DNA of 64,000 nt from Haliotis rufescens. Its lineage: Eukaryota. Shown here in pieces: positions 2,360 to 46,100 of this stretch. The notes under the pieces were generated by a model. That model was not told the DNA's origin. It did not search any database and saw only the letters and a list, made by a program, of their open reading frames with translations. Where the stretch lies: contig NW_025964223.1 of NCBI RefSeq assembly GCF_023055435.1, positions 7,316,001-7,380,000 on the forward strand. The letters run 5' to 3'. Positions within the stretch are counted from its first letter, which is position 1, and each line of letters begins with the position of its first letter. The position numbers and the translations under genes are program-made.

Positions 2360-4265
2360 TTATCCCCCTTCTGACATCGACTCGACCTTGAACCCTGTCA
2401 GCGAATACTGAGTGGGTCCTACTGCCATGCCACTGTAATAAGCCACCACTTGACTCAGGGAAGGAAACCTCAGAAGGCTCGACTTCCCATCAACGTCAGT
2501 GGCGCCTAAAATATCCTTGACATGGCTGTCGACAACCATCCAGCCACCAGCAGGGTTCTGCAGCAAGGCCGAGCTTCTGCCATCAAAGGTGATAATGGCT
2601 CCCTGGCAGTCCTGGGCGTTGACAACCCTCCCCACAGCATCCCCAAACTCCCTGAGGGGCTGGCCTGGCATCCACTCCCAGGTCAACTGACTCGTTAGGG
2701 AGTTCGAGTCCATGCTGCCAGGGTACAGAAGTCCCTGCATCTCGCAGACTCGGCCGCACCGGACAGGCCATCTCGACTGGGAGTCTTCTGGCTCCTCCAT
2801 CATCTCGTCTGCTGCCAGATGTTTGCTGAGAGGAGCCCAGCTTCCCATGGTGTCGAGGATGGCGTCATGAAGACGGTCCCCCATGACGAGGACCCCGTCA
2901 AGTGTAGCTGGAGTCCACAGACCAGCAGGAACAACTGCACTGGCAACAATGGCGGTGAATGCCACCGAGGTGCACTGGGTTCCTGGATGTCGAGATCTGA
3001 AAGAAAAGAAACAAGAACTTTTATTCACAGAAGTAACTTTTGAAAGATGAATTTCGAAGTTGTTCTCAAATAAAAAAAGTATTGTTTAAATTCCCTCATC
3101 AAAATATGCCTAAAGGGTTGACTGCAATGTTTAAGTAGTACATAATTCTCCAATATTACAAATATTTAGTTTATACACTTCACTTACGGGCTCCACACTT
3201 CTGAAATGTGGCCTTGGTGGAAGTGTCCGAGGATGGAGTGTCTGCATTCAGGCTGACCGGACACTTCCACTGTGTCCTTGACCTCTGTAGCTGACTGGCT
3301 GGACGTGGGTGGGAGTTCCCTGGCGGTCTGGGCTGTGTGCGCAGATCTTGATGGGAGAAGAGGGTGTTCCCCGGCCGGGGTGCCATATCCAGAAAGAGTA
3401 GCCCGAGGCTGTGAGCTGTAATCCCCTGGGGTGGGGGTAAGGAAGCTCCTTAAGTCCAGTATAGGCTTCTGGGACCTTCAATGTGAAGAGAGAGACGTTT
3501 AGTTTCAGTGATGGAGTATCGTATCATTATGACGTATGAAACTACATTGTTACAAGAATACTGTATCGATTTGAAAAAACAAAAGTTTACATTACTGTTT
3601 TAGTTCTGACGGCTAAAATAAACATCCGAATGGCGGGGAATAATGGCACCATAGCGTTATTGTAAAACATACTAGCTGCCCTAACCTTGATCTCTCGAGG
3701 AAAAGACAGCAGTTTATAATTTGGTCAGTTTCGTATAAGGGAGTGCGACTTACCTAGGGCTGGGACGGGTAACTCGGGTACCCGGGTCGGGTGGGTACTG
3801 AGTAGGACCCGGGCACCCACAGGACTACCCGGACCCGTGGTTAGTCACGTGATATATTGTTTAATGACCAAAATAATCTAGAACTCCATGGTTACACTAC
3901 AAATCACTAATGTTCGCATTTCTTTCTGGCTATGCACCCATATCTTCTGATTTTTCATATGATTGAATAAAGATATAACTTAATTCAACTTCAGTGTATG
4001 AATGACCAGATTGTTCAATACATGTATCTAAATACGTTTTACCAGGGCTATGCTAAAAATGTTCCCATTCGGACATTTTGAGACATCTCCTGAGACCTAC
4101 AGTGGGTACCCGGGTAGGATCGGGTAATAGGGGGGTGGGTACCCGGGTAGTAAATTTGGACTCGTCCCAGCACTTCACTTACCCATTCAGGGATCTTGCA
4201 GGAAGTTCTTTGATCTTTGTCTCTTTGTAATAATCGCCCCCGTCATCCTTCAAGTCAATTATCAT
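2360..4265 (-). CDS. Viral-tegument-like deubiquitinase (VTD / peptidase C76-like), 3 exons, about 335 aa
   Basis: Exons 4265-4183, 3475-3188, 2996-2360; GT-AG, both introns phase 2; 1008 nt open. Motifs GHFHQG, GTQC (catalytic Cys), W-x4-LDGVLVMGD and VVDSH (Asp/His). Exon 1 is the least certain. Confidence 0.75.
3755..4175. mobile_element. hAT-type MITE, 421 bp
   Basis: TIRs TAGGGCTGGGACG / CGTCCCAGCACTT; 8-bp TSD GACTTACC / CACTTACC; subterminal GGGTACCCGGG repeats; related copy at 46651. Confidence 0.8.
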
Positions 4266-6441: not shown

Positions 6442-8497
6442 TCAGTTAGTGAAATAGTGCCTTGTGATGTAATCACGGATGCCCCGTCCATCTTCGGGAC
6501 CTGTATATTGCCCTTCAATGTTACTGTCGTCCTCTCCATCAACATCCAGCATGGGTTCACGAAGAATTATCGCCAGATTATGCAACACAGCACAAGCACC
6601 TGTGAAATATAGTATGATTGTTTAAAGGGTTTACAGTATTGTTATCATTCGATTCTTATGTTATATGAAGGAGTGTTTCCCACTGGTGTTAGCACTGTTC
6701 CAGCTATATATATATGCGATCTTATATATCGGTTAGCTTCAAATTTATTTCATAGTTACAATGTATATTATTATCTTAAAAAGCTAACCAATGATGGTGC
6801 AAACTCTCTCTGGGCTCATCCTGATTTCACCGTGCAGAACATGGAAACGCCGTTTGAGCCACCCAAATGCTCTTTCTATGGTTGACCTTGTTCTTTTATG
6901 GGAAGAGTTGAATCGCTCTTGCTCGGGGCTAGATGGCTTTAGATACGGAGTCATCAAATACGGACGACATGCGTATCCACTGTCACCGAGAATAACGCCG
7001 TCTTGTAGAGTCGTATGGTGTGTTTCCAGGTGTTGCCGCACGTTACTCATCTTGAACACGTGGCTGTCATGCGTACTGCCTGGCCATCTCGCCACTAAGT
7101 TAGTAAATTTACCTACAGATCGAGACAAATGGGGTCAATGTTAATATAAGTCAATATTACCATCGAACTAGGTTCATATAGCAGCCACTGCCATATAGCT
7201 GAAACATTGCTGATCGCGGCATTAAACAACAAATGCTGAAATCATATCATACTATAAAGATTTGTCTCATAGCTATTTCGTTTAACAACGTGAATGGTGT
7301 CAGGGTCGTAAACATATTGTCCTTGTGACTTTGAAGGGAGGACGTGTATGCTCCATGCACAGGTTTAACAGTGACATTTGATTTGTTATTATAAAATTTT
7401 ATTTAACACACCTTGGCTGTCACACACTGCTTGAACGTTGATCGAATGGTAGCCTTTCCTGTTGACAAAGGCAGGTTCGTTGTCTGATGGTGCCTGTATC
7501 CGTACATGTGTCCCATCGATACATCCGATGACTCCAGGAAATCTAGATATATTGTAGAATTCTTTTCTAATGTCGCCTATATCCCTCTCGGACGGCCAGG
7601 TAACAAACTTGGGCACAAGTGACGCAATGGCAAGGGAAACTTTCCTCACAACTCGTGAGGCTGTTGATTTGTCTATCCCTATTGTGTCGCCAGTGATTTG
7701 CAGGAAACTTCCACTTGCAAAGAAACGTAGGGCTACCAGAACCTGATAAAATGATTATAAAGAGGCTAATGATAGGTTTGACAAATTTTCAAATATTTCC
7801 ATAATACTTATATCTACTTTGTTATTTATTTGGCTGCGTTTTCATTATGTCTCACTTAGTAAAGTGTTAATGATTGGTATAAGATGTGCATGCTTTAATT
7901 AATTAAAATGTTCTTTTGGCCGGAATCGAACTCGCAAAACTGTTCTCTTCAGTGTGCACGACACATTTAGTTTAAGTCATTAGAGTAACTTCCCCTTATG
8001 AAATTGATCATGGCTGACAACGCCAAGTTGAAAACGTATCTTTCTGGAGTGAAGTGAAAGGGATCCATGAATTTACATTACTTTCAATTGTGAAATATAT
8101 TTACAAGGTTGGTATCATTAGGCTGCACATATGACTTTACCAACACAGACCAGTGAGCTGACCCACGTAGAAGTGCGTTTCATTCATTGTAAAGATTGCC
8201 GCTATAACTTTGGCGCTATAATTATGTGTTTATTTCAAACTAGCTGAGTTTCTAGTGACGACGTGTTAATTATCAAACATTTACCTGTAGTTCAACACTA
8301 AGTGCGTGCGATCTTGAAGATTTGGGCTGTAATTCATCTCTCACAAGATCGCAGATATATCCGATGCTTGCCTTCCCAAAACGGTAGCGTGCCCTTACTT
8401 CTTCCTCGCTCATGGATTCGAGGTGTTGAGTTCGTTTTCTGAAAACACGGTCTTTCCTTGTGCGTCCTAAGCGTTCAAACAATATGTTCGCGGCCAT
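6442..8497 (-). CDS. Harbinger DDE transposase (HARBI1-like, DDE_Tnp_4), 4 exons, 341 aa
   Basis: Exons 8497-8285, 7742-7412, 7112-6789, 6599-6442; motifs [43 protein letters not shown]. Confidence 0.92.
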
Positions 8498-8926
8498 GTT
8501 TGTTTTTAATGACACGCTAATGATGCCCCAGAACCTTCATTAAGTTAATGACGCGCTAATGACACCACGACGTCATTAAAACGTTAGTACAACTGGATTT
8601 AATGATACATTAGTTAATGAAGGTTTAATGACACGTTAATGCATCATTAAAGTTTGATACAACCGGGTCCTGGACCCGGTTGTATCAAAGCCTCATTAAC
8701 TAATGGCTACATTAAACCCTAATGATACATTAAATGCTTAATGCACCATTAGTTAATGGCATCATTAAAATCGGTTGTATCAAACGTTTATTAGCATATC
8801 ATTATCTAATGGTGCCTTAATGTAAGTGTCCTCATTAAGCTGTCATTAAATTCGGTGTTTCCCCTAAATATTTCCCACAATTCCTTGACGTAAACACGTA
8901 CGCGTTACTTCCGGTCGTCTGTCAAA

Positions 8927-10930
8927 ATGGCATCGTATCCACCTAAACCTAGGAATAGAAACAAGAATTTCGACAGCTCCGAAATTCAGCTATTAGCCGA
9001 GTTGGTGGAGAAACACATCTCCATACTTAACAGTAAGTTTTGCAGCACCGTTACCCACGAAAGAAAGAATGCTATTTGGGCAGACATAACTTCCAAAGTT
9101 AACGCCCTCGGTGTTTGTCAGCGTACAACAAAAGAAATAAAAACAAAATGGACGAACATGCACCAGACGGCCAAAAGGGAATTCAGTAACAGACAGCTGG
9201 ACATGAGGAAGACCGGGGGAGGGCCCTGTATTGCCCCACTTTCCACGACGAGTGAAAAGATAGTTGACATTTACAAGGAATGTCCCAGTTTCACTGGACT
9301 CACGGGCATCGAATCGGACGATCTAGTGATGCAAATGGGTATGTCGCCTGCGTTCAATAAAATATCGATACACAAACTGTTGTAAGTTTTAAAAAGTACT
9401 TTACATGAGACAACGAACAAGTAGCCTAATCAAATCAGCTGCTCATACACGTTGAACAAGGCTATGGGGAATGGGATGTTGCACATGATTTGATGATCAT
9501 ATATCAAGAGGAAATGAAAAAACAAACATTTAACCAACCTTTTTCACAACTATACTCTTTCAGTACAATTGCCGGTTGTGATAAAATACACAGTGCACAG
9601 TTTCATATTTTTCATCAGTTCTCCGACCGGCAGCCATTGTGAAACGAGAAGGGGGGCAACTCTCATTACCCCTGTTCCTAACCCAAAAGTTCACGTTGTG
9701 TCTTTCGATGTTAAGTTCAAATCTTGACATTTTTCGTCTCCAAATGCATATTTTATGTGAAGCATTTTTACTTTTCAAGAGAGAATTTACTTATGACGAC
9801 AAAATTGGGTGAAATATATGCCTCATTATATCAAACTAATTTTTTTTCAACGTGGTTGAATAGGACATATGTTATCAAACACAAATTTAACATACAATTC
9901 TAATATATCATTTCATTTGGCTATAAGGCTAATGATAATAACACTGGTGCCAACATGAGTAAAAGAAAAACACTTATACAATCAGAATTTGTTTTTGCAC
10001 TATAGAGGGGTGAAGGTTTTTGTTGTTTTCAATCTACTATTTCATCATTTGTCATGGGTTGGGATAATTATTTCTGTAGAAACGATTTTGTTACCCGTGA
10101 AGAAAAATAAGACGACAAAAGAAAATGTATTATCGTGATCCATAGCTAATTCTCACTGGAACCGAAAAACAAATGTAATTAGTTGAGCGCAACAGAGTTG
10201 TGTCCCTTTACTGCTGGTTCGTGTAAACCGTACCTCTCCGGTTTCAACAGTGTAATCAAATATTAATTATCGTTATATAACAACTTATTTTCAAAAAGTG
10301 TGCAAATAACTTTATGTGTGTGCAGGTACGGAAGTCGCCGATGTAATTGCCACTCCTTCGACTTTACATCTGTTAGCACGGGCTTTAGAAGAAAATGTTG
10401 GCGATGTCCCTATTCAGGAAGCGTCTGTGCCGAATTGTTCCAGCTCACAGATCTACCCAGAAGGAGAATTGTCTGTCGACCCATCTGCATTACATGCCGA
10501 CATCAATACCATGGAAGAGTATGTCGTATTATTTCATACTGGGATCTATCTTCTTGCAGCAGTGCTAACATACATGAAATGCCAAGTCCTTTTCTGCACT
10601 CGCCCACCCATTAGATTGTAACACTCAAACTAATTTTGGCCTTTAACATACGCGTATACACCGTAGAATTAATTGTATATACATACGGAGACTCGCATGA
10701 CCATAATGATCAAATGATACAAAACAATATATTTTTTCAGGCCTTTGGTCCAGACTGTGTCGAAATCAAATCGTGTCACCAAGAGAAAGATCAAACAGGA
10801 TGACATCACTCGACTGCAGTATGAGGTTTTGCTTGAGCAGAAAAAAAAAGTCATTCAGCAAACTATTTACTTTGAGCTCATGAACAAGAAGCTCCGATTG
10901 GAGTTGGATAGCTTGATGCACTATGAATGA
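8927..10930 (+). CDS. Harbinger Myb/SANT-like DNA-binding protein, 3 exons, 264 aa
   Basis: Exons 8927-9338, 10326-10518, 10741-10930 (phases 1 and 2 match); NF-x3-E-x2-L, W-x2-I-x3-VN, KW and TGGG motifs; coiled-coil-like C-terminus. Confidence 0.9.
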
Positions 10931-11599: not shown

Positions 11600-13655
11600 T
11601 CAGTTAGTGAAATAGTGCCTTGTGATGTAATCACGGATGCCCCGTCCATCTTCGGGACCTGTATATTGCCCTTCAATGTTACTGTCGTCCTCTCCATCAA
11701 CATCCAGCATGGGTTCACGAAGAATTATCGCCAGATTATGCAACACAGCACAAGCACCTGTGAAATATAGTATGATTGTTTAAAGGGTTTACAGTATTGT
11801 TATCATTCGATTCTTATGTTATATGAAGGAGTGTTTCCCACTGGTGTTAGCACTGTTCCAGCTATATATATATGCGATCTTATATATCGGTTAGCTTCAA
11901 ATTTATTTCATAGTTACAATGTATATTATTATCTTAAAAAGCTAACCAATGATGGTGCAAACTCTCTCTGGGCTCATCCTGATTTCACCGTGCAGAACAT
12001 GGAAACGCCGTTTGAGCCACCCAAATGCTCTTTCTATGGTTGACCTTGTTCTTTTATGGGAAGAGTTGAATCGCTCTTGCTCGGGGCTAGATGGCTTTAG
12101 ATACGGAGTCATCAAATACGGACGACATGCGTATCCACTGTCACCGAGAATAACGCCGTCTTGTAGAGTCGTATGGTGTGTTTCCAGGTGTTGCCGCACG
12201 TTACTCATCTTGAACACGTGGCTGTCATGCGTACTGCCTGGCCATCTCGCCACTAAGTTAGTAAATTTACCTACAGAACGAGACAAATGGGGTCAATGTT
12301 AATATAAGTCAATATTACCATCGAACTTGGTTCATATAGCAGCCACTGCCATATAGCTGAAACAGTGCTGATCGCGGCGTTAAACAACAAATGCTGAAAT
12401 CATATCATACTATAAAGATTTGTCTCATAGCTATTTCGTTTAACAACGTGAATGGTGTCAGGGTCGTAAACATATTGTCCTTGTGACTTTGAAGGGAGGA
12501 CGTGTATGCTCCATGCACAGGTTTAACAGTGACATTTGATTTGTTATTATAAAATTTTATTTAACACACCTTGGCTGTCACACACTGCTTGAACGTTGAT
12601 CGAATGGTAGCCTTTCCTATTGACAAAGGCAGGTTCGCTGTCTGATGGTGCCTGTATCCGTACATGTGTCCCATCGATACATCCGATGACTCCAGGAAAT
12701 CTAGATATATTGTAGAAATCCTTTCTAATGTCGCCTATATCCCTCTCGGACGGCCAGGTAACAAACTTGGGCACAAGAGACGCAATGGCAAGGGAAACTT
12801 TCCTCACAACTCGTGAGGCTGTTGATTTGTCTATCCCTATTGTGTCGCCAGTGATTTGCAGGAAACTTCCACTTGCAAAGAAACGTAGGGCTACCAGAAC
12901 CTGATAAAATGATTATAAAGAGGCTAATGATAGGTTTGACAAATTTTCAAATATTTCCATAATACTTATATCTACTTTGTTATTTATTTGGCTGCGTTTT
13001 CATTATGTCTTACTAAGTAAAGTGTTAATTATTGATATAAGATGTGCATGCTTTAATTAGTTAAAATGTTCTTTTGGCCGGAATCGAACACGCAAAATTG
13101 TTCTCTTCAGTGTGCACGACACATTTAGTTTAAGTCATTAGAGTAACTCCCCCTTATGAAATTGATCATGGCTGACAACGCCAAGTTGAAAACGTATCTT
13201 TCTGGAGTGAAGTGAAAGGGATCCATGAATTTACATTACTTTCAATTGTGAAATATATTTACAAGGTTGGTATCATTAGGCTGCACATATGACTTTACCA
13301 ACACAGACCAGTGAGCTGACCCACGTAGAAGTGCGTTTCATTCATTGTAAAGATTGCCGCTATAAATTTGGCGCTATAATTATGTGTTTATTTCAAACTA
13401 GCTGAGTTTCTAGTGACGACGTGTTAATTATCAAACATTTACCTGTAGTTCAACACTAAGTGCGTGCGATCTTGAAGATTTGGGCTGTAATTCATCTCTC
13501 ACAAGATCGCAGATATATCCGATGCTTGCCTTCCCAAAACGGTAGCGTGCCCTTACTTCTTCCTCGCTCATGGATTCGAGGTGTTGAGTTCGTTTTCTGA
13601 AAACACGGTCTTTCCTTGTGCGTCCTAAGCGTTCAAACAATATGTTCGCGGCCAT
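11600..13655 (-). CDS. Harbinger DDE transposase, 4 exons, 341 aa
   Basis: Exons 13655-13443, 12900-12570, 12270-11947, 11757-11600; 1026 nt open; catalytic D-D-E motifs intact. Confidence 0.93.
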
Positions 13656-15332: not shown

Positions 15333-15560
15333 TTTGTTTGTTGTTTAACGCCAAACTCAGCAATATTCCAGCTATATGACGGCGGTCTGTAAGTAATCGA
15401 GTCTGGACCAGACAATCCAGTGATTGACAACATCATTGATCAACGCAATTGGGATCGATGACATGCATCAATCAAGTCAGTGAGCCTGATCGCCCGATCC
15501 CGTTAGTCGCCTCTTACGACAAGCATAGTCGCCTTTTACGGCAAGCATGGGTTGTTGAAC
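15333..15560 (-). mobile_element. SINE-like retroposon family B, partial
   Basis: Reverse complement of the copy at 28827; (AAAC)n tail. Confidence 0.85.
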
Positions 15561-18131: not shown

Positions 18132-21100
18132 CTAAAGTCGTAGCGACCGAATGGCTGGCAAAACTATGTGAACTATTATGATGGCAATCCAATGTGTCAG
18201 GTCAGCATTTTTCGCTACAAGGAGGTCAAACACACTTTGGTGTCCACTGACAGCTGCTATCATTATGGGTGTCCGTCCATTCTGTCCTCTAGTGTTGATA
18301 TTAGAAGGTGACACAAGTTGAGATACTATAGACTTGTTACCACCCTCACAGGCAAGATGAAGTAAACTATCACCATTGTTGTCCACCAGTGACAGGTCAG
18401 CTTGCTTTGACACCAGGAGGTCAAACACACGTTGGTGTCCTTTGACAGCTGCTATCATTATGGGTGGACATCCATGCTGTCCTCTAGTGTTGATATTAGA
18501 AGGTGACACAAGTTGAGATACTATAGAATTGTTACCACCCTCACAGGCAAGATGAAGGACACTTTCACCATTGTTGACCACCAGTGACAGGTCAGCTTGC
18601 TTTGACACCAGGAGGTCAAACACACTTTGGTGTCCTTTGACAGCTGCTATCATTATGGGTGTCAATCCATTCTGTCCTCTAGTGTTGATATTAGAAGGTG
18701 ACACAAGTTGAGATACTATAGACTTGTTACCACCCTCACAGGCAAGATGAAGGACACTATCACCATCGTTGTCCACCAGTGACAGGTCAGCTTGCTTTGA
18801 CACCAGGAGGTCAAACACACTTTGGTGTCCTTTGACAGCTGCTATCATTATGGGTGTCAATCCATTCTGTCTTCTAGTGTTGATATTAGAAGGTGACACA
18901 AGTTGAGATACTATAGAATTGTTACCACCCTCACAGGCAAGATGAAGGACACTTTCACCATTGTTGACCACCAGTGACAGGTCAGCTTGCTTTGACACCA
19001 GGAGGTCAAACACTCTTTGGTGTCCTTTGACAGCTGCTCTCATTATGGGTGTCAATCCATGCTGTCCTCCAGTGTTGATATTAGAAGGTGACACAAGTTG
19101 AGATACTATAGAATTGTTACCACCCGCACAGGCAAGATGAAGTAAACTATCACCATTGTTGTCCACCACTGACAGGTCAGCTTGCTTTGACAACAGGAGG
19201 TCAAACACACTTTGGTGTCCTTTGACAGCTGCTATCATTATGGGTGTCCATCCATTCTGTCCTCTAGTATTGATATTAGAAGATGACACAAGATGTTGTA
19301 CTATAGACGTGTCACCACCCTGACAGGCAAGATGAATTATTTCATTTCCCCTTTTGTCTCTGTTTTGTGTGTGTGATATTGATTGCAATACCTTATAACA
19401 CTCATGCGATCCCATGTTAGCAGTAACCATGAGTGGAGTCATCCCTTCGTCATCAATAGAATTCATTACAACTTGCTTCACTTCATCATTATAAAGTTTG
19501 CTCTTATGTTCTTTCAGAACCTTTAGTGTATTCTTATGTCCTAGCATGCTTGCTATGTGTATAATGTTTGTCTTGTTCTCAATAGTAGTAAGCACATTAG
19601 CGCCATGTTCTATCAGATACACAAGTGTTTCAGAACTCCCAAATGCAGCAGCCAGCAAAAGCCATCTGTTCATGGTTAGAATAATGTCTGGATTTTCACT
19701 CCTGGGTATAAGCCACTTCAATACTGTCACGTTGTTGTTCATCACACAACTTTCCAGTGATTCATTGATCTCTGTTCGAGTAAATTCTCCTCCAGTTATA
19801 TTTTCTATTTCTAAGACAATCTTTGTACAGTGTCCAAGAACAGCCCAATTCAAAAAGCACTCCCCCATATCTCTTTTGTGAAACCAACAGTCATCCAGGG
19901 ATCCAACACGTAGTTTATCAAGCAGTTGAAGAGCCACCTTTTCTTGTCGGAGGATCGGGTGTGTCACTGATTTAGAAAACTGCCCCTTCTTGATTGATTC
20001 TGCAAATCGAGTTGTCAGGATATCATAATACTGTTCGGAGACAAATATTAGGTGGAGATGATCATCGATTTTGCTTTCCTCTACTGGTTGTGGCTGCACT
20101 CGCTCATATATGAAGTTGTCACTGCAGTGAGTCAGCACAAATGTTGGACTGATGTCATACAATGAACAAGCACAAGCATCATATATGGAAGAATGGGCAA
20201 ATCCAACAGCATCACCCCGTGTAAAGAATGTTCCTCTAAGACACTTTGCTGCTTCATACATCCCTAAGCGTGACGCTGATGGCATCAACTTTAAAACCTT
20301 TCTGACCATGTTGTCCATTTTCTTGTCCTTGCCGTCTGCTTCCAACATGGCCAAATCTAACTTATCCTCACATAATAGCATCAGAACTAATATGGCGGAT
20401 CGATCAGTTTTTGACCTCAGGAAGCTGTTTAGTTCTAGCCTAAGATAAGACAGTGGTGACTCGAAAATGTTCTTTGTATTTTGGAACATAGACGAAAATT
20501 CAAAATATAGTTTACAGGTGAGAGGATATCCAAATATGTTTGACTCTTTCTCCCACGGTTTGAAGTCGGGTCTATCTTTAGAAGTGTCTCTATGCAGATT
20601 CCGATGGTGCTCAAATATTGCCTGTTTCTCTGCTTGAGTATATCTGTGTTTCTTTTCAGTTGTTAAATCCACCCGTGTTGGTCCCTGGAACAGAGAGAAT
20701 CTCTCATATTGTAGCTGGCCAAGTCCATCATGGAAGTTGTAAGTCTTGGATGTGAAGACAACACGAATATCCTTTTTGGGCTGTGGTTTTCGGTCATGAT
20801 CTCTACTTGCTATATTTTGACCTCTTTTCTCAGCTTCCTGTTTCCTTGGGGATTCACGGTTCTCTGCTGACTTTTTGCAGTGTTTTAAGTGGCGATCAAG
20901 CTTATTGAGAAATGTTTTCAGCTGTGAAACATCGGTAGATAATCCAACAGTACCAAACATGTCATCTATGACCAGAAATACTCTAGGTGATGAGCTCAAG
21001 AAGTTGTCCAAGTCAAACTGTTCAATCCTGTCCACAAAGGCAAACTTGTACCCTCTTCTCTTATACTGTGAACCCAAGATGAGTGCTGCTGTTGTTTTGC

Positions 21101-24100
21101 CTTCTCCTGAAGCACCACAGATGGTGACATGGCCAAACTCCTTCAGTTTTTGTTTTATAGTCCCGAAACTCTCCGTTTCAACAAAGATTTCTTCAGCATC
21201 ACTTATTTGGATGTCAAGGGTAGCTACAAATAAAAGCAATCATTATTATACGGTTTAATTATGACATGATTTGACAGTGGTTATGCTCTGTGGTTTTGAA
21301 ACCTATTTGACTAAAGCTCCACTATCAGATCCCTATTTCCAGCATAGTTGGCTCTTAAAATTCTTCTCTGAAAGTGTTTGTTTGTATGGTTGCTGTTTAA
21401 CACCACACTCGGCAATATTCCAGATATATGATGGCAGTCTGTAAATTATCGAGTCTGGACCAGGCAATCAAGTGATTGACATCATGAACATCAATCCATG
21501 CAATTGGGTTCGATGACATGCATCAACCAAGTCAGCTAGTCTGACCACCTGATCCCGTTAGTCGCCTCTGACAACAAGCATAGTCACCTTTTACGGCAAG
21601 CATGGGATTATGAAGACTAATTATACCCCGGATCTTCATGGGCCACGCGGAGGAAGCTGAACTTTGGCATGTTTGTTTCCTCTGATAATGACATCATATT
21701 TTGTGTACATTTAGTGTCAGTTATTAGTCATCATTATTTATCATGTTTATGCAGAAGATATTAGATTATCAATGCTGACAGACCAACACTTGAGGTTTCT
21801 TTAAACCTTTTGGGGTGTTTTATGTTTCTTTTTCTGTTTTGCTTTGTTTTGTTTTTTTTCCTGTGGGGCTGTTGACATGGCTTATGTTACTTACCCTCAC
21901 CAACAGTCCCTGCAGCGGTTGGTCCAGTAAATATGTTCTGCGTCTGGACGAGGGTGATGGCTTTAGGGGCATCGCCTATCAACAACATTTCAAAGACACA
22001 AATGGATTACACGGATTAATATTTAACAAACTATCTACAAAACATCACATGGCAAAACCCCATGTAGCCATCCTTCTTGCATGTAGCTTAAAATACTGAC
22101 CGTTGTTCTTCACTGTCATGATGCCGTGTAGTGCTAGCCCACTGAGATACCATGCCGCAGTTTAACATGAATACCGAGCAGTCCTTGTTTTAGCCCCTTA
22201 ATGCCGAGCGCCAGCAGGGTAAACACAAGTACCATATTTTAAGGTCTTTTGGTATGACGCGGCCGGGGATCGATCCCGGACCTTCAGCTCTCCGGGTGGA
22301 CGCTCCGCCACTAGACCACGGAGGCGGTCGTATCAAATTCAAACTTTAATGAAACCAGTATAAGGTGTACAACAAATGTTTCCTTCTCACGCAACGCGTT
22401 CAGTTTTCATGTATTGCAACTTCAATATCCCAGTGGAGATTCCAGGTTGCAATTGGCCCTAAGCAATCAATGCTGGTCATAAGAGGCGAATGAATGGATT
22501 GGGTAGTCAGGCTTAGGGCCTAGTTGATAGAGTGCCATCATACCCTGACAATTTCAATTGTTGCTCATAATATCAATCACTGGTTTGTCTGAGGTCCAGA
22601 CTGGAATATTATGTTAAGCAACAAACAAATCTAAATAATTACTGCAATTTAACTGTCGATACGTATGTGTCATATCACAATAAAGTGTATCGTAAAGCCC
22701 TAACAATTTTACTATCTTTCCATTATGAATAAGTTCCTGTTTCCTAATATACCAATAATGAAAGGCTCTACTTGATATGGCGAGATCATCGATGCATGTA
22801 GTAGTATTTTTTTTGTATCTAATTACACACACCTACTTTAAATACATATCAGTATTGTCACTCCCCAGACAAGAATGTTTCCGAATATCCTAAATATACA
22901 TCTTACTTCAAAAGAGTAAATATGCCCTCGTAAGCCTTGTCAAATAATAAACGTTACTAAAACCGTAGTACTAAGATTATAATGATGATGTAATTTGCAG
23001 TAACATTATTTTATTGAATGGTTTATTTCTCTTTCTACACAATATACATGTGCAAGGTTCAGGTAAATCTATTTTACCATTTTTCTGTCCTTCACATTGG
23101 TGCCCAAGTTTGATTTAAGAGCGGATGATATTTAGTCTCCCATTACAAATCAATACAATCACTAAATGATTACTTTTTCAACAGTGGCTAGTCTTTGATA
23201 TTTAGCTTCATTAATCAGTTATGATTCTACCTTGACATTTTTATCCAGATGTTTCAAATCTACTTAGACCATGATCTTGCTGATTACTTCTGGGCAAAAT
23301 GCCATATCACCCACACTGCATAGCTGGACCATGTAGAGCACCAGTGCCTGTCAGCCTACATTAGACCACATGGTTTAAATTTATGCTGATGATCAGCGCA
23401 GAGAAAGAGGATCAATGAGTTGGGTTTGCTCTTTTTAAACGAAGTGAAAGAAGAGAAGAGAAAGATGGTAGTTATAGGATATGTTCACAATGTGAACGAC
23501 ACATATGAAAAGTTAAAATGTCTATTTACATTACAATAATAATATTGACATATATGTTCTATTCTGCATTAAGTGCTTTCAAAATATGTTTTCATATAAA
23601 TGGCATATCTTTTAATAGGGCCACAAATGTAAACTTTACTAAACACAGAGGTAAAAGACGCTGGCATTCCAACAGTCACATATGTGTTGAATTTGCTACT
23701 TCTAGCTTAAATATTCATAAACAATTGTATGTTAACCTCCAGCCTACAAGATAGTTCTGAATGTGACGCACTCGTTTGTGCCCTCTCTGATATTTTACAA
23801 ACCGTCAACAAATCATCAACAAAGCCTTGCAAAAATAAATCAAATGTACCAAAATGAATAATGGTATGATGTTGAATGTTAAGAGGCAAAACGTAATGGG
23901 GACGAAAAATATCAGGGTTCTAATAAGAAAACAATGTATCAATTAATAATAGGGGTCTTCTTTTGCATCACAGGAAATAAATACAAAGGTTACTCAGAAG
24001 AACACAACATGTATATAAACAAACTCAGCTGGAACAACTGGAAACCTTATCAAAACAGGAACCAATTCTGGAAACTATTAAATAATATTAGAATATATTT

Positions 24101-27100: not shown

Positions 27101-28010
27101 CATTTGGCCTAGGACTATGATGACAACATTCCGGCAAAAGAAAATATTTATTCAGATCTTTCATCTTTAATGTTGACAAATAACATGTTGCGGTTCCTAC
27201 ATTTTTACAGCAATGTATTGAAATATACTTAGAGAATGTACTGTACAATTCAGTGCCATCAACATGGTCTTACTATCTGCATCACAATACTTAGACTTCC
27301 CATCTGTAGAACCTTATGACATCATAATATTGATGTGTACTTACGAACAAAAATGTAATTTTCTCAAGGGATGTCAGTTAGAATAATGCTTACAGGATAT
27401 CTGCCTATGAGCTTTGTTATCTCATCTCACGTTGAAGAAGTTCAAGTATTATGAGGAAAATTTAGGTTTGGGTACAAAAGGCTGGCACATGTAGATAAAA
27501 ATTGATCTGCAATGGTCCTTGAATTTGCTCTTTCAACCTACTGAAAATATTAGGCTCAACCAATGCCACGTCTCTAATCTTTCCCACTATAACCAAATAT
27601 TTCGCAATTGCTTTGTCATTGTGATGTGGCACAGTGGAAATAAACTGTTTTCAATATTGAGGTTTCAAACTTCGATTCGATACCTGTAAATCCTTTAAAT
27701 TCAAAACTTCACGCTTTCTATTCCAAATACAACACAATGGAGTCTGCATTATAAGCAGTGCCTCGATGTGGGTAATACTTGTAACTTAATTCCCAGCTTC
27801 AGGTCTTTGGTGGGTCATGTTATGTTTACAAATTAGTTTTGGATTGAACCATTTATGAAACTCGGTTCATTTACTTATGCTTTGTAAGAGAACGGTAAAC
27901 ATACCTGAGTTGGCGCTCATCGTATTTTCTTCTGAGGTGATGACCTCAATCATCTGGTCATCCTCCTCCTGTGGCAATGACACACGTGTGACATCACTTG
28001 AACTGGCCAT
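18132..28010 (-). CDS. nSTAND3-type P-loop NTPase plus ankyrin-repeat protein (NLR-like architecture), about 1092 aa
   Basis: Exons 28010-27905, 21975-21895, 21223-18132 (both introns phase 1); Walker A GASGEGKT, Walker B FLVIDD, FGYPLTC, FAHSSIYD; many ankyrin repeats. The large exon is secure; the two small upstream exons are predicted. Confidence 0.85.
18196..19340 (-). repeat. Coding tandem repeat, 195-bp unit (two ankyrin repeats), about 6 near-identical copies
   Basis: The CCTCTAGTGTTGATATTAGAAGG landmark recurs with a 195-bp period (18286, 18481 and onward). Confidence 0.95.
21385..21645 (-). mobile_element. SINE-like family B
   Basis: Matches the family B body. Confidence 0.85.
22125..22328 (-). 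mobile_element. tRNA-headed SINE family D (Meta-domain-like), partial
   Basis: On the minus strand, CGTCATACCAAAAAGAC..ATGGTACTTG..GGCGCTCGGCATTAAGGGG; same family as 51723. Confidence 0.75.
24963..25132 (-). mobile_element. tRNA-derived SINE family A, inserted in the LINE
   Basis: TSD AAAACTACAA; A and B boxes. Confidence 0.9.
26360..26555 (+). repeat. Unclassified dispersed repeat, second copy at about 59380-59610
   Basis: Both copies share GCCATTTTGTTTAAA..AAGTGATATGAG..AGAAGGGACATAACTC..GACTTTTATAGTCAGTTAA. Confidence 0.65.
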
Positions 28011-34622: not shown

Positions 34623-36143
34623 TACTAGCCACATAAAGAAACTGTGCACGGAGAAAATATATTCTGGATTGAAATACAACACAGCAAGAACAAAATGATG
34701 CAGACGCTGTAGCAGCTGAATGATCGGACCATAAGAAAATGTCAACGGGACCTGAACAACATCTGTTACGATGACGTCAGAAGATCAAAATGGAGTAGGG
34801 GGTCATACGACAAAGTCACAAAGTCAATAACGGGTATGACCACCCTGTGCGGGAATCATAGCAGTGCATCGGCGACGCATGGAGTCCACCAAATTGGCAT
34901 GGAAGGCCTGGGGAATGACCTGCCATATCCTCCTCAAATCCTGTGCCAAGTCACGGACGTTATCTGGAGGATGTGGAAGACGACGAAGACGGCGCTCCAT
35001 TTCATCCCACACATGCTCTATTGGGGAGAGATCTGGAGAAATTGCAGGCCATGGCAGTAACATGACATTGTTATGGTGAAGGAAATCCATTGCGACCCTA
35101 GCCGTGTGAGGACGAGCGTTGTCCTGTTGAAAAGTCAATCCCGGGCCATGACGTTGCAGGAAAGGAATGACCACAGGCCTCAGAATCTGATCTCTGTAGC
35201 CAACACCGGTGAGATTGCTCTGAACATCCACCAAAGGGTTGCGGTGCCTTGCTGTTATCCCACCCAAAATCATCACAGAGCCACCTCCAAAACGATTCCT
35301 CTCCACAATACAGTTGCGTGCATAACGTTCTCCCAAACGCCGGTAGACACGTTGGCGCCCGTCACTGAGGGAAATGTTGAACCTCGATTCATCTGTAAAG
35401 ATAACATTTCTCCACCATATTCGAGGTTGGCGAACACGATTTCGACACCATCTTAGACGGTTGACTCGATGACGGTGTGTCAGGATGGGACGTATGGCAG
35501 GGCGTCGTGGTCGAATCCCGTACTGACGTAAACGATTCCTGACAGTGTTGGGATGGATACGGCGCAGTCCAGGAATTGTCTGGGACTTCGTTACTGCCGT
35601 TTGGAACCTGTGTCGGAGATGTGTAACTCGAATCCATCTGTCCTGTCTTGGCGTCGTTACTCGGGGACGTCCTGAACGTGGGTGGTCGGCAACGTCATTT
35701 GTGTTCTGATAACGCCTCACCAATGCCGATATCGTGTTACGATGGCATTGGAAATGTGTTGCCACCTGTTGTTGCCTCATTCCCGCTCGGATCATTCCAA
35801 TGGCTTCATGACGCTGTGCAGCTGTCAATCTTGGCATGATTTGCTTGTGATATGCCTGTGTCAGCGCCTGAGAAGTTTTGAATTTTTGAATGACCACAGA
35901 TCATGCTTTCCAAAGTGACAGCGAATTTTGAGTTGCACATGCTGTGTACAGCTGCACAGGATGCACGTGCAGTAACACATTGCACGTCCATAGGCCCCCA
36001 TCAATGACGTCATTTCGCATGGCACGTGCATGAGCGTTTGAATATCTCCAATAATTGCTGTGTTCAAACCTATATTTCATATATGGACGGTGTGCCCTTA
36101 TATCTATATTTTCTCCGTGCACAGTTCCTTAAAGAGGCTAGTA
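34623..36143 (-). mobile_element. Tc1 transposon, 1521 bp
   Basis: 38-bp TIRs TACTAGCC..TGTGCACGGAGAAAATAT with about 4 mismatches; TA TSD. Confidence 0.95.
34824..35837 (-). CDS. Tc1 DD34E transposase, 337 aa, uninterrupted
   Basis: MPRL.., GRPR, FTDES, FQQDNA, SPDLSPIEHVW; 34 residues between the second D and the E. Confidence 0.93.
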   Translation of the reverse strand: MPRLTAAQRHEAIGMIRAGMRQQQVATHFQCHRNTISALVRRYQNTNDVADHPRSGRPRVTTPRQDRWIRVTHLRHRFQTAVTKSQTIPGLRRIHPNTVRNRLRQYGIRPRRPAIRPILTHRHRVNRLRWCRNRVRQPRIWWRNVIFTDESRFNISLSDGRQRVYRRLGERYARNCIVERNRFGGGSVMILGGITARHRNPLVDVQSNLTGVGYRDQILRPVVIPFLQRHGPGLTFQQDNARPHTARVAMDFLHHNNVMLLPWPAISPDLSPIEHVWDEMERRLRRLPHPPDNVRDLAQDLRRIWQVIPQAFHANLVDSMRRRCTAMIPAQGGHTRY

Positions 36144-40171: not shown

Positions 40172-43100
40172 TCAGAGCAAGGATGCAGGTTTGCCAGGAT
40201 GGAAGCCCCCCGTAGCGTCACTCTTGGCACCAAAAGATTCAAATTTGTGGTCCAGTGGCACACCTGAGAATAAAATCATTCAAAGTTGTAAGTGAGTTCG
40301 GTCTAACGCCTCTTTAAACAGTATTTCAGTTACATCACAGCATGTCCGCTTGATGTGGGAGGAAAGCCCAAAGCATGGGTATGGTGCTGAAAACCCTACA
40401 AACATTCAATCTAGGGATTCGAACCACGATGATAGATTCCTGGCAAGACTCTGCCGAGCGAATTGTGGAACCTCAGACGAACAACCTGTGCCCCTAGAGG
40501 TTTTAACTTTAAACCCCGATACATTGCAAAGAGCACCCCCATCTGAATGTTTATATTCATCATGCAAACCTCCCAAACCTCCCAATGAAGGTAAAAATTC
40601 AGAATCCCGCTTTAAAAATCATGGAATGGAAAATGGCCGAGACAACTAAACGTACCCGCCAGGTACTCCAGACTGGGGACCGTGATGTCGCTGTACTGGC
40701 TGATGACGCTCCCCCACAGCGTGTTCATCACCTTGTCTGAGGCCCCCTCGGGCCCGTGGTACAGGAAGGGCCCCCATACATCCGAGATCAAGTACTCCAT
40801 TTCCTCATGGGTCACCAGAGAACTGTGCTGGAAAAGTAAGCAAACTCCGTCAGTTGTTTCATCCTGTCTTATGTCAAAATGCTGCACGCAGAGAAAATTG
40901 AAAACAGACACAAATAATTAACAAGTACATCCAATGAGATCCAGAAAATTTGCCCCACCAGGATTCCAGGTTGGAACTGTCCCGTGATTCTCACAATCGA
41001 TCTGGGCACATGCCAACATCCAACATCAGGTTGGAAATTCCATGTATTACAGTGCCAAAGACACGGTTACAACTGGAATGGTACTGTCAAAATATGTTCC
41101 TGGTTCCTGGAGGGCACACTTTGGAATCATAGTTTTTAGCCAAAATGGAAAACAAAGCCATTGATGAATGTACTTTCACAAACGTAAACTGGAGGACCAC
41201 ATGGAACTTAAACCTATAAACATATCCTCATGGACAGCTGAACTCACAAAACAACAAGAAAACAACATTATCACTATTCCCAGCCAGGGGGCACATGAGA
41301 ATTTTGTTTGTTCATATAATAATGAACAAAAACTTTAAAAAAAAGTCCTACAAAGCCTTAAGAAGAGACAGACCCTTGGGTCACCTTATATCATCAGAAA
41401 AAAAGATTTAGCGTGAAATAAATACACAGTAAGGACCCTTTTATGGAAAAAATAACTCTCAGCTAACTTCAGTAGTTTCTGAGAAAACCTGTCCCCACTG
41501 CAGACACTATGCACTAAGTAAAAATAACATGGATCAAGGGATGTAACTCTGTAAAAATAATTTACAGGACCAATGTTCAAACAGTCTTGACTAGTATCTC
41601 TTAGATAGGCATGTACACTTTCATTCCTGTAACTTCAGTAGTTTATGAGAAAATTGGTCCCCATTTCATGCAGTATGCACTATGCAAGGTCCATAAGTTC
41701 CAAACTCATTTTAAATCATGACCAATTACATCAGCGTGTAAAAGTTCCTTTCTTTGACTAAAACAGTTTTTCGAAAAATGTCCCCTTTGAGAAGCGAACA
41801 GACGGACGGACGGAATAACTCTGTGGTGGGGGATAATAATGGGTATTCTGACACTGACATGATTTCAGAGGGTTTTATCAATTTCATTGAATGGGAAGAG
41901 CCAAGCCCGCTCACGGTGACATGACATTTGCCGACTTCAAAGATGGATCAAAATTATTGTTCAAGGTGGCACCCTTGAGTTCCTAACAAGGTCATTAAAA
42001 TCAGATATTGGTTCTTGCTACTGCTAAACAATGACCTGAGGACATCCCATTACAGGTCATGTCAGAATGAGCTTCCATCTGATCAATCACAGCCTCTCAG
42101 AGCCACATCAGGAAAGTGACAGTCAGAATGTGTTTTCTAATCATGAACCTCGATAAGGCCAACAAGGGGGTATTCCGAACGACAGTTACAGGCTCATTCC
42201 ATCGAAATCATCATCTTTTTCTCGCTTGAACGGGATAAATATTTGAACAGGAGAGACTTTCCATAGGCCATGGGAAGTACTACCATACAATCTCAGCCAT
42301 CTATTACACATTCCAGAATTTCATTTGTTCAGTTTTAAAGTTTTGAATCAATATTTTTCAACCGTAGTCTGAAGTAGGAAGTCGCCAGTTTGAAACTAGT
42401 GCTGTAAAGCTCGAGAAAACTACTTTCTGACTGGGTAAAGTTCACTTCTTTTTAGCAATAATTATTGGTTGGTCAAAGTTCGCGAAATGTCCTTCTGATG
42501 TGACCTGTTGAGGGATGTCCTCAGATCTTTGTTTCGCGGAAGTAAGCAGTAAGATCTGAGTTTAAATGAGATGGATTCCCAAAGGTACATCTGAACATCA
42601 TTACGAGTGGCCTGTGGCACACCTGAAACACTACATGTCTATCCCTGGATATACAGAAAACATACAGGAACGATATTCACCTCTATCCCTGGATATACAG
42701 AAACATACAGGATCTATATTCACAGGATTTATATTCACCTCTATCCCTGGATATACAGAAAACATACAGGATCTATATTCACCTCTATCCTGGATATACA
42801 GAAACATACAGGATCTATATTCACAGGATCTATATTCACCTCTATCCCTGGATATACAGAAAACATACAGGATCGATATTCACCTCTATCCCTGGATATA
42901 CAGAAAACATACAGGATCAATATTCACCTCTATTCCTGGATATACAGAAAACGTACAGTATCTATATTCACCTCTATTCCTGGATATACAGAAAACATAC
43001 AGGATCTATATTCACCTCTATCCCTGGATATACAGAAAACATACAGCACCTATATTCACCTCTATCCCTGGATATACAGAAAACATACAGGATCTATATT

Positions 43101-46100
43101 CACCTTTATCCCTGGATATACAGAAAACATACAGGATCTATATTCACCTCTATCCCTGGATATACAGAAAACATACAGCACCTATATTCACCTCTATCCC
43201 TGGACATACAGAAAACATACAGGATCTATATTAACCTCTATCCTGGACATACAGAAAACATACAGCACCTATATTCACCTCTATCCCTGGATATACAGAA
43301 AACATACAGGATCTATATTCACCTCTATCCTGGACATACAGAAAACATACAGGATCTATATTCACCTCTATTCCTCTTCGCCGTTTCTTTTGTGACGGCT
43401 CATCCTCCTGTTGTACAGTTCCATCATCACATGCATACCCTTCCGCGTCCATCTCCTCCAGCAGCAGTACCGTGTCCCAGTCCGCGTACATCTTAGACGG
43501 GAAACAATCGGCACAGATGTTGTCTCCAAAATACACAATCTGAAACAAATAAAATATTTATAAAAATGCATGAAAGTCTTCAAAACAAATAAGATACATA
43601 AATGAGAGACTTTAATATTACTGTCAGATTGTATCTGTGAATGGTTACCATGGTTATGGAGTTGCACGTAGGAAAAATAAAATGACTTAAGGCAAAAAAA
43701 AAGGTTTCTGGCCTCTTGGTATGGCTTAAAGTGATGTGCATCCTCTCATCGCACACACACACAACCAGCACAGACACAACATGGGTCATGCATCGTGTGC
43801 AGTTGGTTATTTGTATTTTGGGGAAAGCGTTTAGAATTGTGGTGTGAGGGTGGGAAAATGATGCGGATTGGGACCTGAAACATATTTTTTTCTTCAATTT
43901 ATAAAATAAAACAAGCACATGGCACAATTAAACTTGAATATTTAAGGAGTCAAATATCATCATCAAACCCCACCTTAAACATATTGTCAAGTCAGGGCTT
44001 TGCAGCTCAAGAAATCAAGCTATATATGTAGTTTCATGTGAAATTAAATATTACATTCCAATATATCTATGGAATTTATTGCTGAAAACACTGAAAAAAA
44101 ATGCCAAATATAATTGAGCGCAACAAATTTCATAAATACTGTCCATATTTTACGCTATATGTATACACACACCTCATGTTGATAACACAGCAGACAGGAA
44201 ATAAAACAAATAAATACAGCTTCATAACAAATCTCAATGCACTTGCTGTGTGAACGCATTAAGTATCAATTTCCATGAGACATGCATGCACTGGTCCAGT
44301 ATGTAAAACAGACAGTCCAAGGGAGGTAACTCTCCTTACATCGAGGTCTGGCACATTGAACAGTCTTGCAATATGGTTCAAATGAGTCCCTACTCCCTAT
44401 CTAAAACAGTACAAGCTTTAGAATATTATACGCATGCAGCCTTACATGATAAAGCAGTGCCTTGAGAAATATACATCTGGCAAAAAGTTAAACATCACCA
44501 GAAAATCTTAATCACTGTCGCGAGACTGCAAATCCAACTGGCAAAATAATTTTGGTAAAGACACAAACACCTATGCATTACTAAGATGTGCATGTTTGCT
44601 AGTGCTTCTGACGTGCAAAGCATGTGCACAATGCACTTGCAACAAGCCACTCGCAACTTGTTAAAAACACAACTTGTCAAAAACATGAGAACTGGCAACT
44701 TGAAATTATTCTGAGCTGCAGTTCTAATCATTATTCAACATGGCTTATAGGAGATTATCTGACAGCAGATGCATAAATGTCCTACAAAGCTGTTGGTCGT
44801 AATAAGTAAACAATGGTCATCACGGACAAGGTGAAATTGACCCAGACCAGCAGGTTAGAAGTCAAAGAGGGCGATCAAGCATTCCATGCTGTCAGACAGT
44901 CATCACAGAGACTATTTGGAGCGGCGTTGGTCGAGATTGAACCTGAGGACATGGTCAGATGAGAGAAGGGTTTTTTTGCGTTTCATAGACGGGTGTATTC
45001 AGGTCAGCAAAGAAACATGAAATACTCGCACAGAAACATTTGACGAAAAGCCCTAATTTGTGATATAACACAAGCACTGCACCGAGCGTGACACAAGCAC
45101 TGCACCGAGCGTGAGACAAGCACTGCACCGAGTGTGATACAAGCACTGCACCGAGCGTGACACAAGCACTGCACCGAGCGTGATACAAGCACTGCACCAA
45201 GTGTGTCACAAGCACTGCACTGAGTGTGTCACAAGCACTGCACCGAGCGTGACACAAGCACTGCGCCGAGTGTGGCACAAGCACTGCACTGAGTGTGGCA
45301 CAAGCACTGCACCGAGCGTGGCACAAGCACTGCACTGAGTGTGGCACAAGCACTGCACCGAGTGTGGCACAAGCACTGCACCGAGCGTGGCACAAGCACT
45401 GCACTGAGTGTGTCACAAGCACTGCACCGAGCGTGGCACAAGCACTGCACTGAGCTTGACACAAGCACTGCACCGAGTGTGGCACAAGCACTGCACCGAG
45501 TGTGACACAAGCACTGCACCAAGTGTAACACAAGCACTGCACCGAGCGTGGCACAAGCACTGCACCGAGCGTGACACAAGCACTGCACCGAGCGTGACAC
45601 AAGCACTGCACCGAGCATGGCACAAGCACTGCACCGAGCGTGACACAAGCACTGCACCGAGCGTGACACAAGCACTGCCTCAAGTGTGACACAGCCTACC
45701 ACAGGAATGCATCAAAGATCTCACTGGAGGCATGTGAAGGAGGATTGAGGCAGTCATTTGGCACGTGGCAGCTACACTAAGCTACTGATGATCTTGTGAC
45801 AGTCATGTTGGGCCCACAATGGTCATTCTCAGCAACAACGACAGTTGTGGCTGTTCCATATTTAAGGCACGTGCCAATTTTCTCAATAATACACAATGAA
45901 ATGCCCATCAATATTATAAATACCACTTCCCAAAATGTTGACATTCCGATTATCGATCTTTTTAGCGATTTTTTTGTCGACAAAGAATTGCTCTTTCAGG
46001 AAATGATACATATTCTGGTTTCAGGATTTGGGACTAACACAGTCTTTCAAAGCTTATGGCCAAAATAGCAGGGAGTGCTTCACATTTTTCCAAGTATTTT

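What the first reader, a model, noticed from the sequence alone, without database searches (positions are those of the whole stretch)
18132..21223. NLR-like nSTAND3-ankyrin protein with a homogenised repeat array that varies at a few positions
Seen: about six 195-bp units are nearly identical at DNA level, yet differences cluster at a few codons (QNGWT/QHGLT/QNGLT/QHGCP/QNGRT; DNNGDSLL/VNNGESVL/DNDGDSVL; HQS/HQR) and recur in mosaic combinations. Established: these positions lie largely in the ankyrin beta-hairpin and first helix, the binding face, and fungal NLRs diversify by shuffling highly conserved repeats. Inference: a candidate invertebrate intracellular immune sensor whose specificity is rewritten by unequal crossover within one exon.
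Basis: partly seen in the sequence, partly recalled or inferred. Interest (0 to 1): 0.7.

Follow-up and report, generated by a model that had tools for sequence, protein, structure and literature searches.

The report
Abalone NLR-like gene with reshuffled ankyrins
This abalone gene joins a switch-type ATPase to six near-copied ankyrin units, and it belongs to a large family whose arrays are copied and recombined while their predicted binding face diversifies, so it likely works as a rewritable intracellular sensor of non-self, as some fungal immune receptors do.

Summary
Confirmed and larger than reported. 18132-21223 (-) is the last exon of a three-coding-exon red abalone gene (RefSeq LOC124137298): nSTAND3 ATPase, degenerate ankyrins, six 195-bp two-ankyrin units. 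All 13 variable codons among inner units are nonsynonymous; 7 fall in 12 literature-defined binding positions (p=0.001). The genome gives 161 STAND matches. In 43 genes (518 inner units) binding positions have pN/pS 1.56 (1.35-1.81) against 0.55 elsewhere, but a conservative event count gives only 1.09-1.16, so positive selection is likely, not proven. Paralogs 99.9% identical in the STAND part carry 13 versus 17 units, with a block duplication; four-gamete conflicts rise from 13% to 42% with distance. This is the regime of fungal HIC NLRs (HET-E/NWD); a 2026 survey already reports HIC-plus-ATPase proteins in animals, and abalone ankyrin expansions are in print without the STAND being mentioned in the passages read. 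No effector domain is present; exon 2 weakly resembles a RHIM amyloid motif (unresolved). Immune function and variation between individuals are untested. The scan holds two notes on other ankyrin genes of this genome, none on this feature.

The parts
27904..28010 (-). coding exon 1 (ATG at 28010; acidic, low-complexity, residues 1-36 of the 1092-aa product)
   Evidence: tblastn of annotated product P0002, 100%; GT donor visible
21895..21975 (-). coding exon 2 (81 nt); carries a 13-residue beta-prone motif with weak RHIM likeness
   Evidence: splice joint in run X7; RHIM tests
18132..21223 (-). large last coding exon (STAND module, ankyrins, tail)
20865..21185 (-). nSTAND3 nucleotide-binding domain, first part; Walker A at 21093-21116, Walker B acidic pair intact
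   Evidence: Pfam PF20720 E 5.7e-18; invariant columns
19908..20675 (-). helical domains after the ATPase core (GxP-type and winged-helix histidine-type motifs; motif names recalled); boundaries approximate
   Evidence: conserved G228/P230 and F338/H340 in alignments; confident model, mean pLDDT 90
19362..19880 (-). degenerate, non-homogenised ankyrin repeats; boundaries approximate
   Evidence: model and structural matches spanning model residues 445-765
19167..19361 (-). unit 1 (divergent edge unit)
18387..19166 (-). units 2-5, homogenised (94-97% identical), 13 variable codons, none synonymous-only
18192..18386 (-). unit 6 (divergent edge unit)
18132..18194 (-). hydrophobic-then-basic C-terminal tail, read from a shifted frame of an old seventh unit
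   Evidence: hydrophobicity

Best explanation
The gene encodes an nSTAND3 ATPase followed by an ankyrin array that is homogenised and reshuffled by recombination between units, and it likely acts as an NLR-like intracellular sensor whose ligand specificity would be set by the variable hairpin and helix-1 residues. Shown: architecture; single-exon array; within-gene homogenisation; unit gain, loss and block duplication between close paralogs; amino-acid change concentrated on the binding positions with purifying selection on the framework. Inferred: unequal crossover or gene conversion in the germline as the mechanism; diversifying selection by pathogen or other non-self ligands; ligand binding releasing autoinhibition, nucleotide exchange and oligomerisation as in other STAND proteins. 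Most speculative: since no death-fold, TIR or enzymatic effector is present, output would run through the short N-terminal motif (perhaps RHIM-like amyloid seeding) or through a partner protein.
For: nSTAND3 over cut-off; bacterial nSTAND3 clusters are the next look-alikes by features, 0.93-0.95, and the bacterial defence protein Avs5 carries nSTAND3 (10.1101/2025.07.08.663546, passages). 161 matches in the genome. 41 of 46 genes with three or more indel-free 65-codon units have mean unit identity of 80% or more; the nearest unit lies in the same gene for 399 of 571. Within-gene unit pS 0.13, window 0.008, against STAND-region dS 0.27-1.35 to 11 paralogs. L061/L062: 99.9% identical over 1500 nt, 13 versus 17 units, with a multi-unit block duplicated; L067/L068 99.7%, 5 versus 20; window/L031 97.5%, 6 versus 12. 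Four-gamete incompatibility 13% to 42% with distance, p<=0.05 in 15 of 30 genes. Edge units more divergent than inner ones: 35 and 28 against 19 differences, medians of 43 genes. Binding positions 2,3,5,10,13,33 (PMC4308713): pN 0.251, pS 0.161, ratio 1.56 (1.35-1.81); rest 0.55; 0 of 20000 random column sets reach it; outer-helix control pN 0.081, pS 0.119. A distant 68-codon subfamily (9 genes, 166 units) peaks at the equivalent positions, 2.6-5.8 times pS. Relatives carry CARD, SAM, HEPN_DZIP3 or DUF4559 domains.
Against: The minimum-event count gives a ratio of only 1.09 (19 representative genes, p 0.38) and 1.16 (43 genes, p 0.03) at binding positions, against 0.51-0.52 elsewhere; relaxed constraint is not excluded by that count. 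Pairwise counts and paralogs are not independent. The window gene's pre-array region against its closest paralog has pN/pS about 0.9 (42 N, 16 S). No effector domain in Pfam. RHIM: no Pfam hit, profile-profile probability 0.4%. 15 of 30 genes show no significant recombination signal. No ligand, infection or allele data.
Confidence: 0.65

Rival explanations
1. Mostly neutral repeat turnover: recombination homogenises any exonic tandem array, the framework is held by folding, and the concave face is simply free to drift in redundant duplicates with no sensing role.
For: Event-count ratio near 1 at binding positions; broken copies exist among the matches (stops in several rows).
Against: Equally exposed outer-helix positions are constrained (pN/pS about 0.7); single positions reach 2-3 times pS and up to 5.8 times in a distant subfamily; STAND region under purifying selection, omega 0.22-0.47 in 11 of 11 comparisons; stop-free frames up to 3355 codons.
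Confidence: 0.13
2. A variable recognition protein serving allorecognition, symbiont control or gamete or tissue self-recognition rather than pathogen sensing.
For: The best-studied HIC NLRs act in fungal allorecognition (PMC13449251, passages); some paralogs have a signal peptide, cysteine-rich ectodomain and transmembrane segment before the STAND domain (P0045-P0057, read from sequence).
Against: A very large multi-locus family fits a pathogen race better than a few recognition loci (inference); an unidentified ankyrin transcript was higher in abalone resilient to summer mortality (PMC5405107, passages; not shown to be this family).
Confidence: 0.12
3. The family is as described, but this copy is a young duplicate losing function.
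For: pN/pS about 0.9 against its closest paralog; framework-type changes in some units (threonine to proline at ankyrin position 6 in unit 5, aspartate to valine at position 1 in units 3 and 5); fewer variable binding residues than the paralog L031.
Against: Intact frame and Walker motifs; a spliced contig covers the exon 2-3 joint (one run, RNA status guessed, could come from the 97.5% identical paralog); counts are small.
Confidence: 0.08
4. Unit numbers are assembly artefacts.
For: The array could not be checked with spanning reads (one search gave only short contigs).
Against: All units of the window gene differ from each other; arrays stay in frame; annotated proteins of three other abalone species have the same domain families.
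Confidence: 0.02

Closest known systems
Fungal HIC NLRs (Podospora HET-E/HET-D/NWD WD40 family; NACHT + HIC ankyrin proteins of Dikarya), PMC13449251
   Same: STAND ATPase plus near-identical repeats with a few hypervariable positions, gain, loss and shuffling of repeats, concerted evolution.
   Different: nSTAND3 instead of NACHT or NB-ARC; two-ankyrin unit; animal host; no recognised cell-death effector or shown amyloid motif; allele polymorphism and function not shown here.
Bacterial Avs5 (Sir2-nSTAND3-TPR/Sel1/PPR), 10.1101/2025.07.08.663546
   Same: Same Pfam ATPase family with C-terminal helical repeats as a sensor; a tested immune role.
   Different: Sir2 NADase effector, repeats of other classes, prokaryotic; no homogenised array mentioned in the passages read.
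Abalone ankyrin-repeat gene expansion (PMC12627906; Picone et al. 2015 seen only as cited there)
   Same: Duplicated ankyrin or 'serine/threonine phosphatase' genes clustered on haplotype-variable chromosomes, linked speculatively to defence; the same annotation names appear.
   Different: The terms NTPase and NACHT occur 0 times in that paper; repeat homogenisation and site-specific diversification do not appear in the passages read. That these are the same genes is my inference from names.
RHIM/PFD-bearing STAND receptors (fungal NWD2; amphioxus BF82280), PMC4262963
   Same: Short motif in an unstructured N-terminus ahead of STAND plus repeats; motifs sometimes in tandem copies.
   Different: The window motif lacks the canonical core tetrad (recalled), misses Pfam RHIM, and no partner with a close copy of the motif was found.

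Membership tests
nSTAND3 (PF20720) | Score over Pfam cut-off | tested here: met
   65.5 bits against 27.2; paralogs P0025, P0040, P0045 cover profile 1-152/154 of 155
STAND NTPases | Walker A and B, then helical domain with GxP motif and winged helix (features recalled) | tested here: met
   G33, G36, G38, K39 invariant in 87 rows; D84, P230, F338, H340 in 90% or more; model
STAND NTPases | Structural match of the module to solved STAND proteins | tested here: inconclusive
   Fold searches were filled by ankyrin hits; sequence search gave only P-loop-level matches, among them Roq1 and an RPW8 NLR at E 0.01-0.04
NLR-like tripartite receptors | C-terminal superstructure-forming repeats | tested here: met
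NLR-like tripartite receptors | N-terminal effector or signalling domain | tested here: inconclusive
   No Pfam domain; 62-residue N-terminus with a weak RHIM-like motif
Canonical metazoan NLR | NACHT domain plus LRR | tested here: not met
   Pfam gives nSTAND3 and ankyrin, neither NACHT nor LRR
HIC NLR regime | Repeats 80-100% identical to each other | tested here: met
   94-97% for inner units; T-REKS Psim itself not run
HIC NLR regime | A few hypervariable positions under diversifying selection | tested here: inconclusive
   Hypervariable positions are clear; ratio 1.56 pairwise but 1.09-1.16 by minimum events
HIC NLR regime | Repeat gain, loss and shuffling | tested here: met
   between close paralogs
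HIC NLR regime | Length polymorphism among alleles | not testable with these tools
   Only short contigs of other individuals
NLR-like receptors | Ligand-induced oligomerisation and immune output | not testable with these tools
   needs experiment
RHIM | Match to the RHIM profile | tested here: inconclusive
   No Pfam hit for exon 2 at E<=1; not among the 11 genomic RHIM matches; hhalign 0.4%; PSSM rank 2 of 1080 windows, shuffle p 0.017; 13 of 62 upstream windows of distant relatives at p<=0.05 against 2 of 58 controls. A scan of isolated motif fragments was not run.

The most novel reading that the evidence does not exclude
Abalones run a natural DARPin library: a family of order a hundred nSTAND3 receptors whose single-exon ankyrin arrays (4 to more than 40 units) are rewritten by unequal crossover between alleles and paralogs, and which signal through an N-terminal RHIM-like amyloid motif on its own small exon, an animal counterpart of the fungal NWD2/HET-s system built on an ATPase family otherwise known from bacterial Avs5.
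Probability: 0.25. Interest if true: 0.85.

Novelty: new variant of a known kind. Interest (0 to 1): 0.62.

Why it matters
How invertebrates without antibodies keep a diverse set of intracellular receptors is an open question. This family gives a countable, testable case: 12-15 codons per 195-bp unit carry the variation, and long-read amplicons can type whole arrays. Standard NLR surveys that look for NACHT or NB-ARC would miss it, and its members are named as phosphatase subunits or ankyrins. It is also a candidate marker set for disease resistance in farmed and declining abalone, and a natural parallel to engineered ankyrin binder libraries.

Tried and rejected
Single-sequence fold of the whole protein failed (pLDDT 38); replaced by an 87-row alignment. 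Fold searches did not test the STAND part, as ankyrins filled both lists. PADLOC: only P-loop-region matches (PDC-S73 in 36 of 36, mad8 in 16 of 36), not taken as membership. No listed run is on record as RNA; one guessed-RNA run gave a spliced contig. Short contigs cannot give unit number, so variation between individuals stays open. A tail-anchor reading of the C-terminal tail: the tail is shared by 10 fetched frames including the window's, but it is no more hydrophobic than the shifted frame of an ordinary unit (1.2-2.8 against 2.1), it is short, and some copies hold charged residues in its middle; it may be a capping helix. Adjacent units are hardly more alike than distant ones (0.94 against 1.07 of the mean), so simple end-to-end growth is not the pattern. 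A search of the genome with exon 2 found 21 matches, all on the contigs and near the places of family genes, and no separate partner gene. My first position set (2,3,5,13,14,33) was recalled from DARPin design; I repeated the test with a set read from PMC4308713 and got the same result. PMC9327721 (virus-selected blacklip abalone) has no mention of ankyrin, NLR or NACHT.
Full report
Observation. The frame 18132-21239 (-) is stop-free for 1035 codons. A 195-bp array of 5.7 copies with 94% matches lies at 18220-19336. Pfam finds nSTAND3 (E 5.7e-18, over cut-off) and ankyrin repeats. The database holds the product as a 1092-aa protein named LOC124137298 of Haliotis rufescens; its first 62 residues map to two upstream exons, 27904-28010 and 21895-21975. 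One contig from a run guessed to be RNA joins 21895 to 21223 with canonical ends; it could also come from the nearest paralog.

The array. Each unit is two ankyrin repeats. Units 2-5 differ by 5-12 nt, units 1 and 6 by 17-32 from them. Among units 2-5, 13 of 65 codons vary and none is synonymous-only (chance about 0.017 given a 27% synonymous site fraction); 7 of the 13 fall in the 12 columns that match ankyrin positions 2, 3, 5, 10, 13 and 33 (p 0.001). These positions form the continuous binding surface of designed ankyrin libraries (PMC4308713, passages). An alignment-based model (87 rows, pLDDT 90, pTM 0.80) places 11 of the 13 in hairpin loops or first helices and two at the start of the outer helix. 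Two sites show all four combinations among four units.

The family. A search of the genome with the STAND region gave 161 matches, a lower bound; some genes match twice and some small contigs may be alternative haplotypes. I fetched 60 of these loci. 45 of the 60, plus the window, have three or more indel-free 65-codon units (571 units); 9 more have a 68-codon unit; the other 6 were not used for unit counts. Unit counts run from 4 to 41 in the 46. All 56 hits of the word-indexed search were Haliotis (four species). A profile search found 2797 cluster representatives at E<=0.001. Of 20 looked up, 17 had names, all molluscs: Haliotis, Gigantopelta, Littorina, Saccostrea, Mytilus, Tegillarca, Potamilus, Sinanodonta. 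In 27 scanned relatives all had nSTAND3 and 25 ankyrins; single ones carried CARD, SAM, HEPN_DZIP3, DUF4559 or PTB domains. Long homogenised arrays were conspicuous mainly among the top-scoring relatives (output partly cut), so the extreme form may be an abalone speciality; this was not tested systematically.

Concerted evolution and shuffling. The nearest neighbour of a unit lies in its own gene for 399 of 571 units; many of the misses fall in clusters of very recent duplicates. Synonymous divergence among units within genes averages 0.13, and 0.008 in the window gene, far below the 0.27-1.35 between the window's STAND region and 11 paralogs. Against its nearest paralog L031, about 39 kb away and 97.5% identical in the STAND part, the window gene has 6 units versus 12, no inner unit is closer than 15 nt across genes, and four sites are fixed or nearly fixed between the arrays. 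L061 and L062 (99.9% over 1500 nt) share units 1-5 in order, then L062 has a duplicated block of three to four units and new chimaeric units. Incompatible site pairs rise from 188 of 1409 at 1-10 nt to 824 of 1978 at over 100 nt, significant in 15 of 30 genes. Edge units are the most divergent, as unequal crossover predicts (the prediction is established knowledge, recalled).

Selection. In 43 genes with four or more inner units (518 units; first and last units and units with indels left out; a few indel-bearing units are shifted by one residue and add noise), pairwise pN/pS is 1.56 (bootstrap over genes 1.35-1.81) at the 12 binding columns and 0.55 at the other 53; 19 chosen representatives give 0.244/0.168. 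With the recalled DARPin set the ratio is 1.25-1.58 for kappa 1-3 (observed kappa about 1.8), and pN there exceeds the gene's pS in 41 of 43 genes. Outer-helix surface columns give 0.081/0.119. The 68-codon subfamily, about 30% identical in the STAND part, peaks at the equivalent hairpin and helix-1 positions. Against this, a minimum-event count that ignores recurrent change and favours synonymous paths gives 1.09 (p 0.38) and 1.16 (p 0.03), against 0.51-0.52 for the rest. The fair reading: framework purified, binding face at or above the neutral rate, positive selection likely at several sites.

Mechanism. Shown: the anatomy and the evolutionary regime. Inferred from STAND biology (PMC13449251 introduction passages; Avs5 preprint passages): an autoinhibited ATPase that oligomerises when the repeat domain binds a ligand. 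The output is the weak link. The 62-residue N-terminus has no known domain. Exon 2 holds a 13-residue stretch that lines up without gaps with the genome's own RHIM matches: it ranks 2 of 1080 windows in P0002 with shuffle p 0.017, and first or second in most of its closest paralogs, but is not significant in most other subgroups. Among distant relatives, 13 of 62 upstream windows scored p<=0.05 against 2 of 58 control windows; these proteins are partly related and the idea was formed after seeing the data. Pfam RHIM does not hit exon 2 and hhalign gives 0.4%; ten or so of the distant proteins were scanned whole only at E<=1e-6, too strict for a 22-position model. One paralog has this exon in eight tandem genomic copies. 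PMC4262963 (parts 1-2 of 4 read) notes that RHIM profiles lack power and that an amphioxus STAND protein has an N-terminal RHIM. I put the RHIM reading at about 0.3. Another subgroup instead has a signal peptide, a cysteine-rich ectodomain and a transmembrane segment, so N-termini are swapped in this family. The C-terminal tail is an old unit read in a shifted frame, shared by 10 fetched frames; its role is open.

Comparison with print. PMC13449251 (abstract, passages, sections 12 and 20; Figure 8 not visible, supplement unreadable) describes the same regime for fungal HIC NLRs and reports that HIC plus ATPase proteins, nSTAND3 included among the ATPases scored, occur in animals too; 'mollus' and 'Haliotis' occur 0 times in its main text, but its supplement may list such proteins. 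PMC12627906 (passages) reports ankyrin-gene enrichment on a haplotype-variable abalone chromosome without mention of an NTPase. PMC8195603 (passages) notes STAND, HEPN and ankyrin domains in bivalve immune expansions. PMC5405107 (passages) found an unidentified ankyrin transcript raised in resilient abalone. PMC8683736 (passages) gave no position numbers. Searches listed no paper whose title or abstract start describes this family as STAND receptors with homogenised arrays; 'nSTAND3' occurs in 5 papers. The library lacks most subscription journals.

Verdict. A real feature and a good entry into an under-described family. It works like a fungal HIC NLR; it is a member of nSTAND3, not of canonical NACHT-LRR NLRs. 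New variant of a known kind; interest 0.62.

Noticed in passing
G000:C583:50881088-50898411: The motif-bearing small exon of one paralog is present in eight tandem genomic copies about 2.5 kb apart; the annotated product P0025 has five.
   Followed up: partly
P0045-P0057 (paralogs; e.g. loci on C19, C46, C56): Subfamily with signal peptide, cysteine-rich EGF-like ectodomain and transmembrane segment in front of nSTAND3-ankyrin: a receptor-like STAND architecture, read from sequence.
   Followed up: no
window 18132-18194 and L031-L034, L039, L042, L044, L060: Shared frameshift turns an old ankyrin unit into a conserved hydrophobic-basic tail; the old frame has stops in several copies.
   Followed up: partly
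L091-L099 (G000 contigs C35, C68, C101, C594): Several good RHIM matches in this abalone genome, five over the Pfam cut-off; their genes were not identified.
   Followed up: partly
G000:C2:23.5-23.9 Mb (L045, L061-L070): Tandem cluster of near-identical paralogs (97-99.9% in the STAND part) with 5 to 32 units; the best place to read crossover history.
   Followed up: partly
P0097 cluster (Haliotis rubra LOC124266880): A distant nSTAND3-ankyrin gene with 33 annotated isoforms of different length and a 33-aa period, suggesting repeat shuffling by alternative splicing.
   Followed up: no
window 21425-21706: Very high-copy interspersed repeat in intron 2 (depth in the millions); the same 22-bp duplicated word recurs at 15504, 28868, 32092, 39684 and 63556.
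   Followed up: no
window 7389-7754, 8894-9385, 12547-12912: DDE_Tnp_4 fragments and a Myb/SANT-like frame, likely remains of Harbinger-type transposons (element name recalled).
   Followed up: partly
window 34824-35900: Tc1/mariner-type transposase frame of 358 codons (DDE_3, HTH_Tnp_Tc3_2).
   Followed up: no
window 54132-58505: 4.4-kb purine-rich minisatellite (36-39 bp period) with long open frames on the minus strand; other minisatellites at 42638-43375, 45068-45693, 47581-48148.
   Followed up: no
window 2360-3085: 241-codon minus-strand frame in a GC-richer stretch with no Pfam match.
   Followed up: partly
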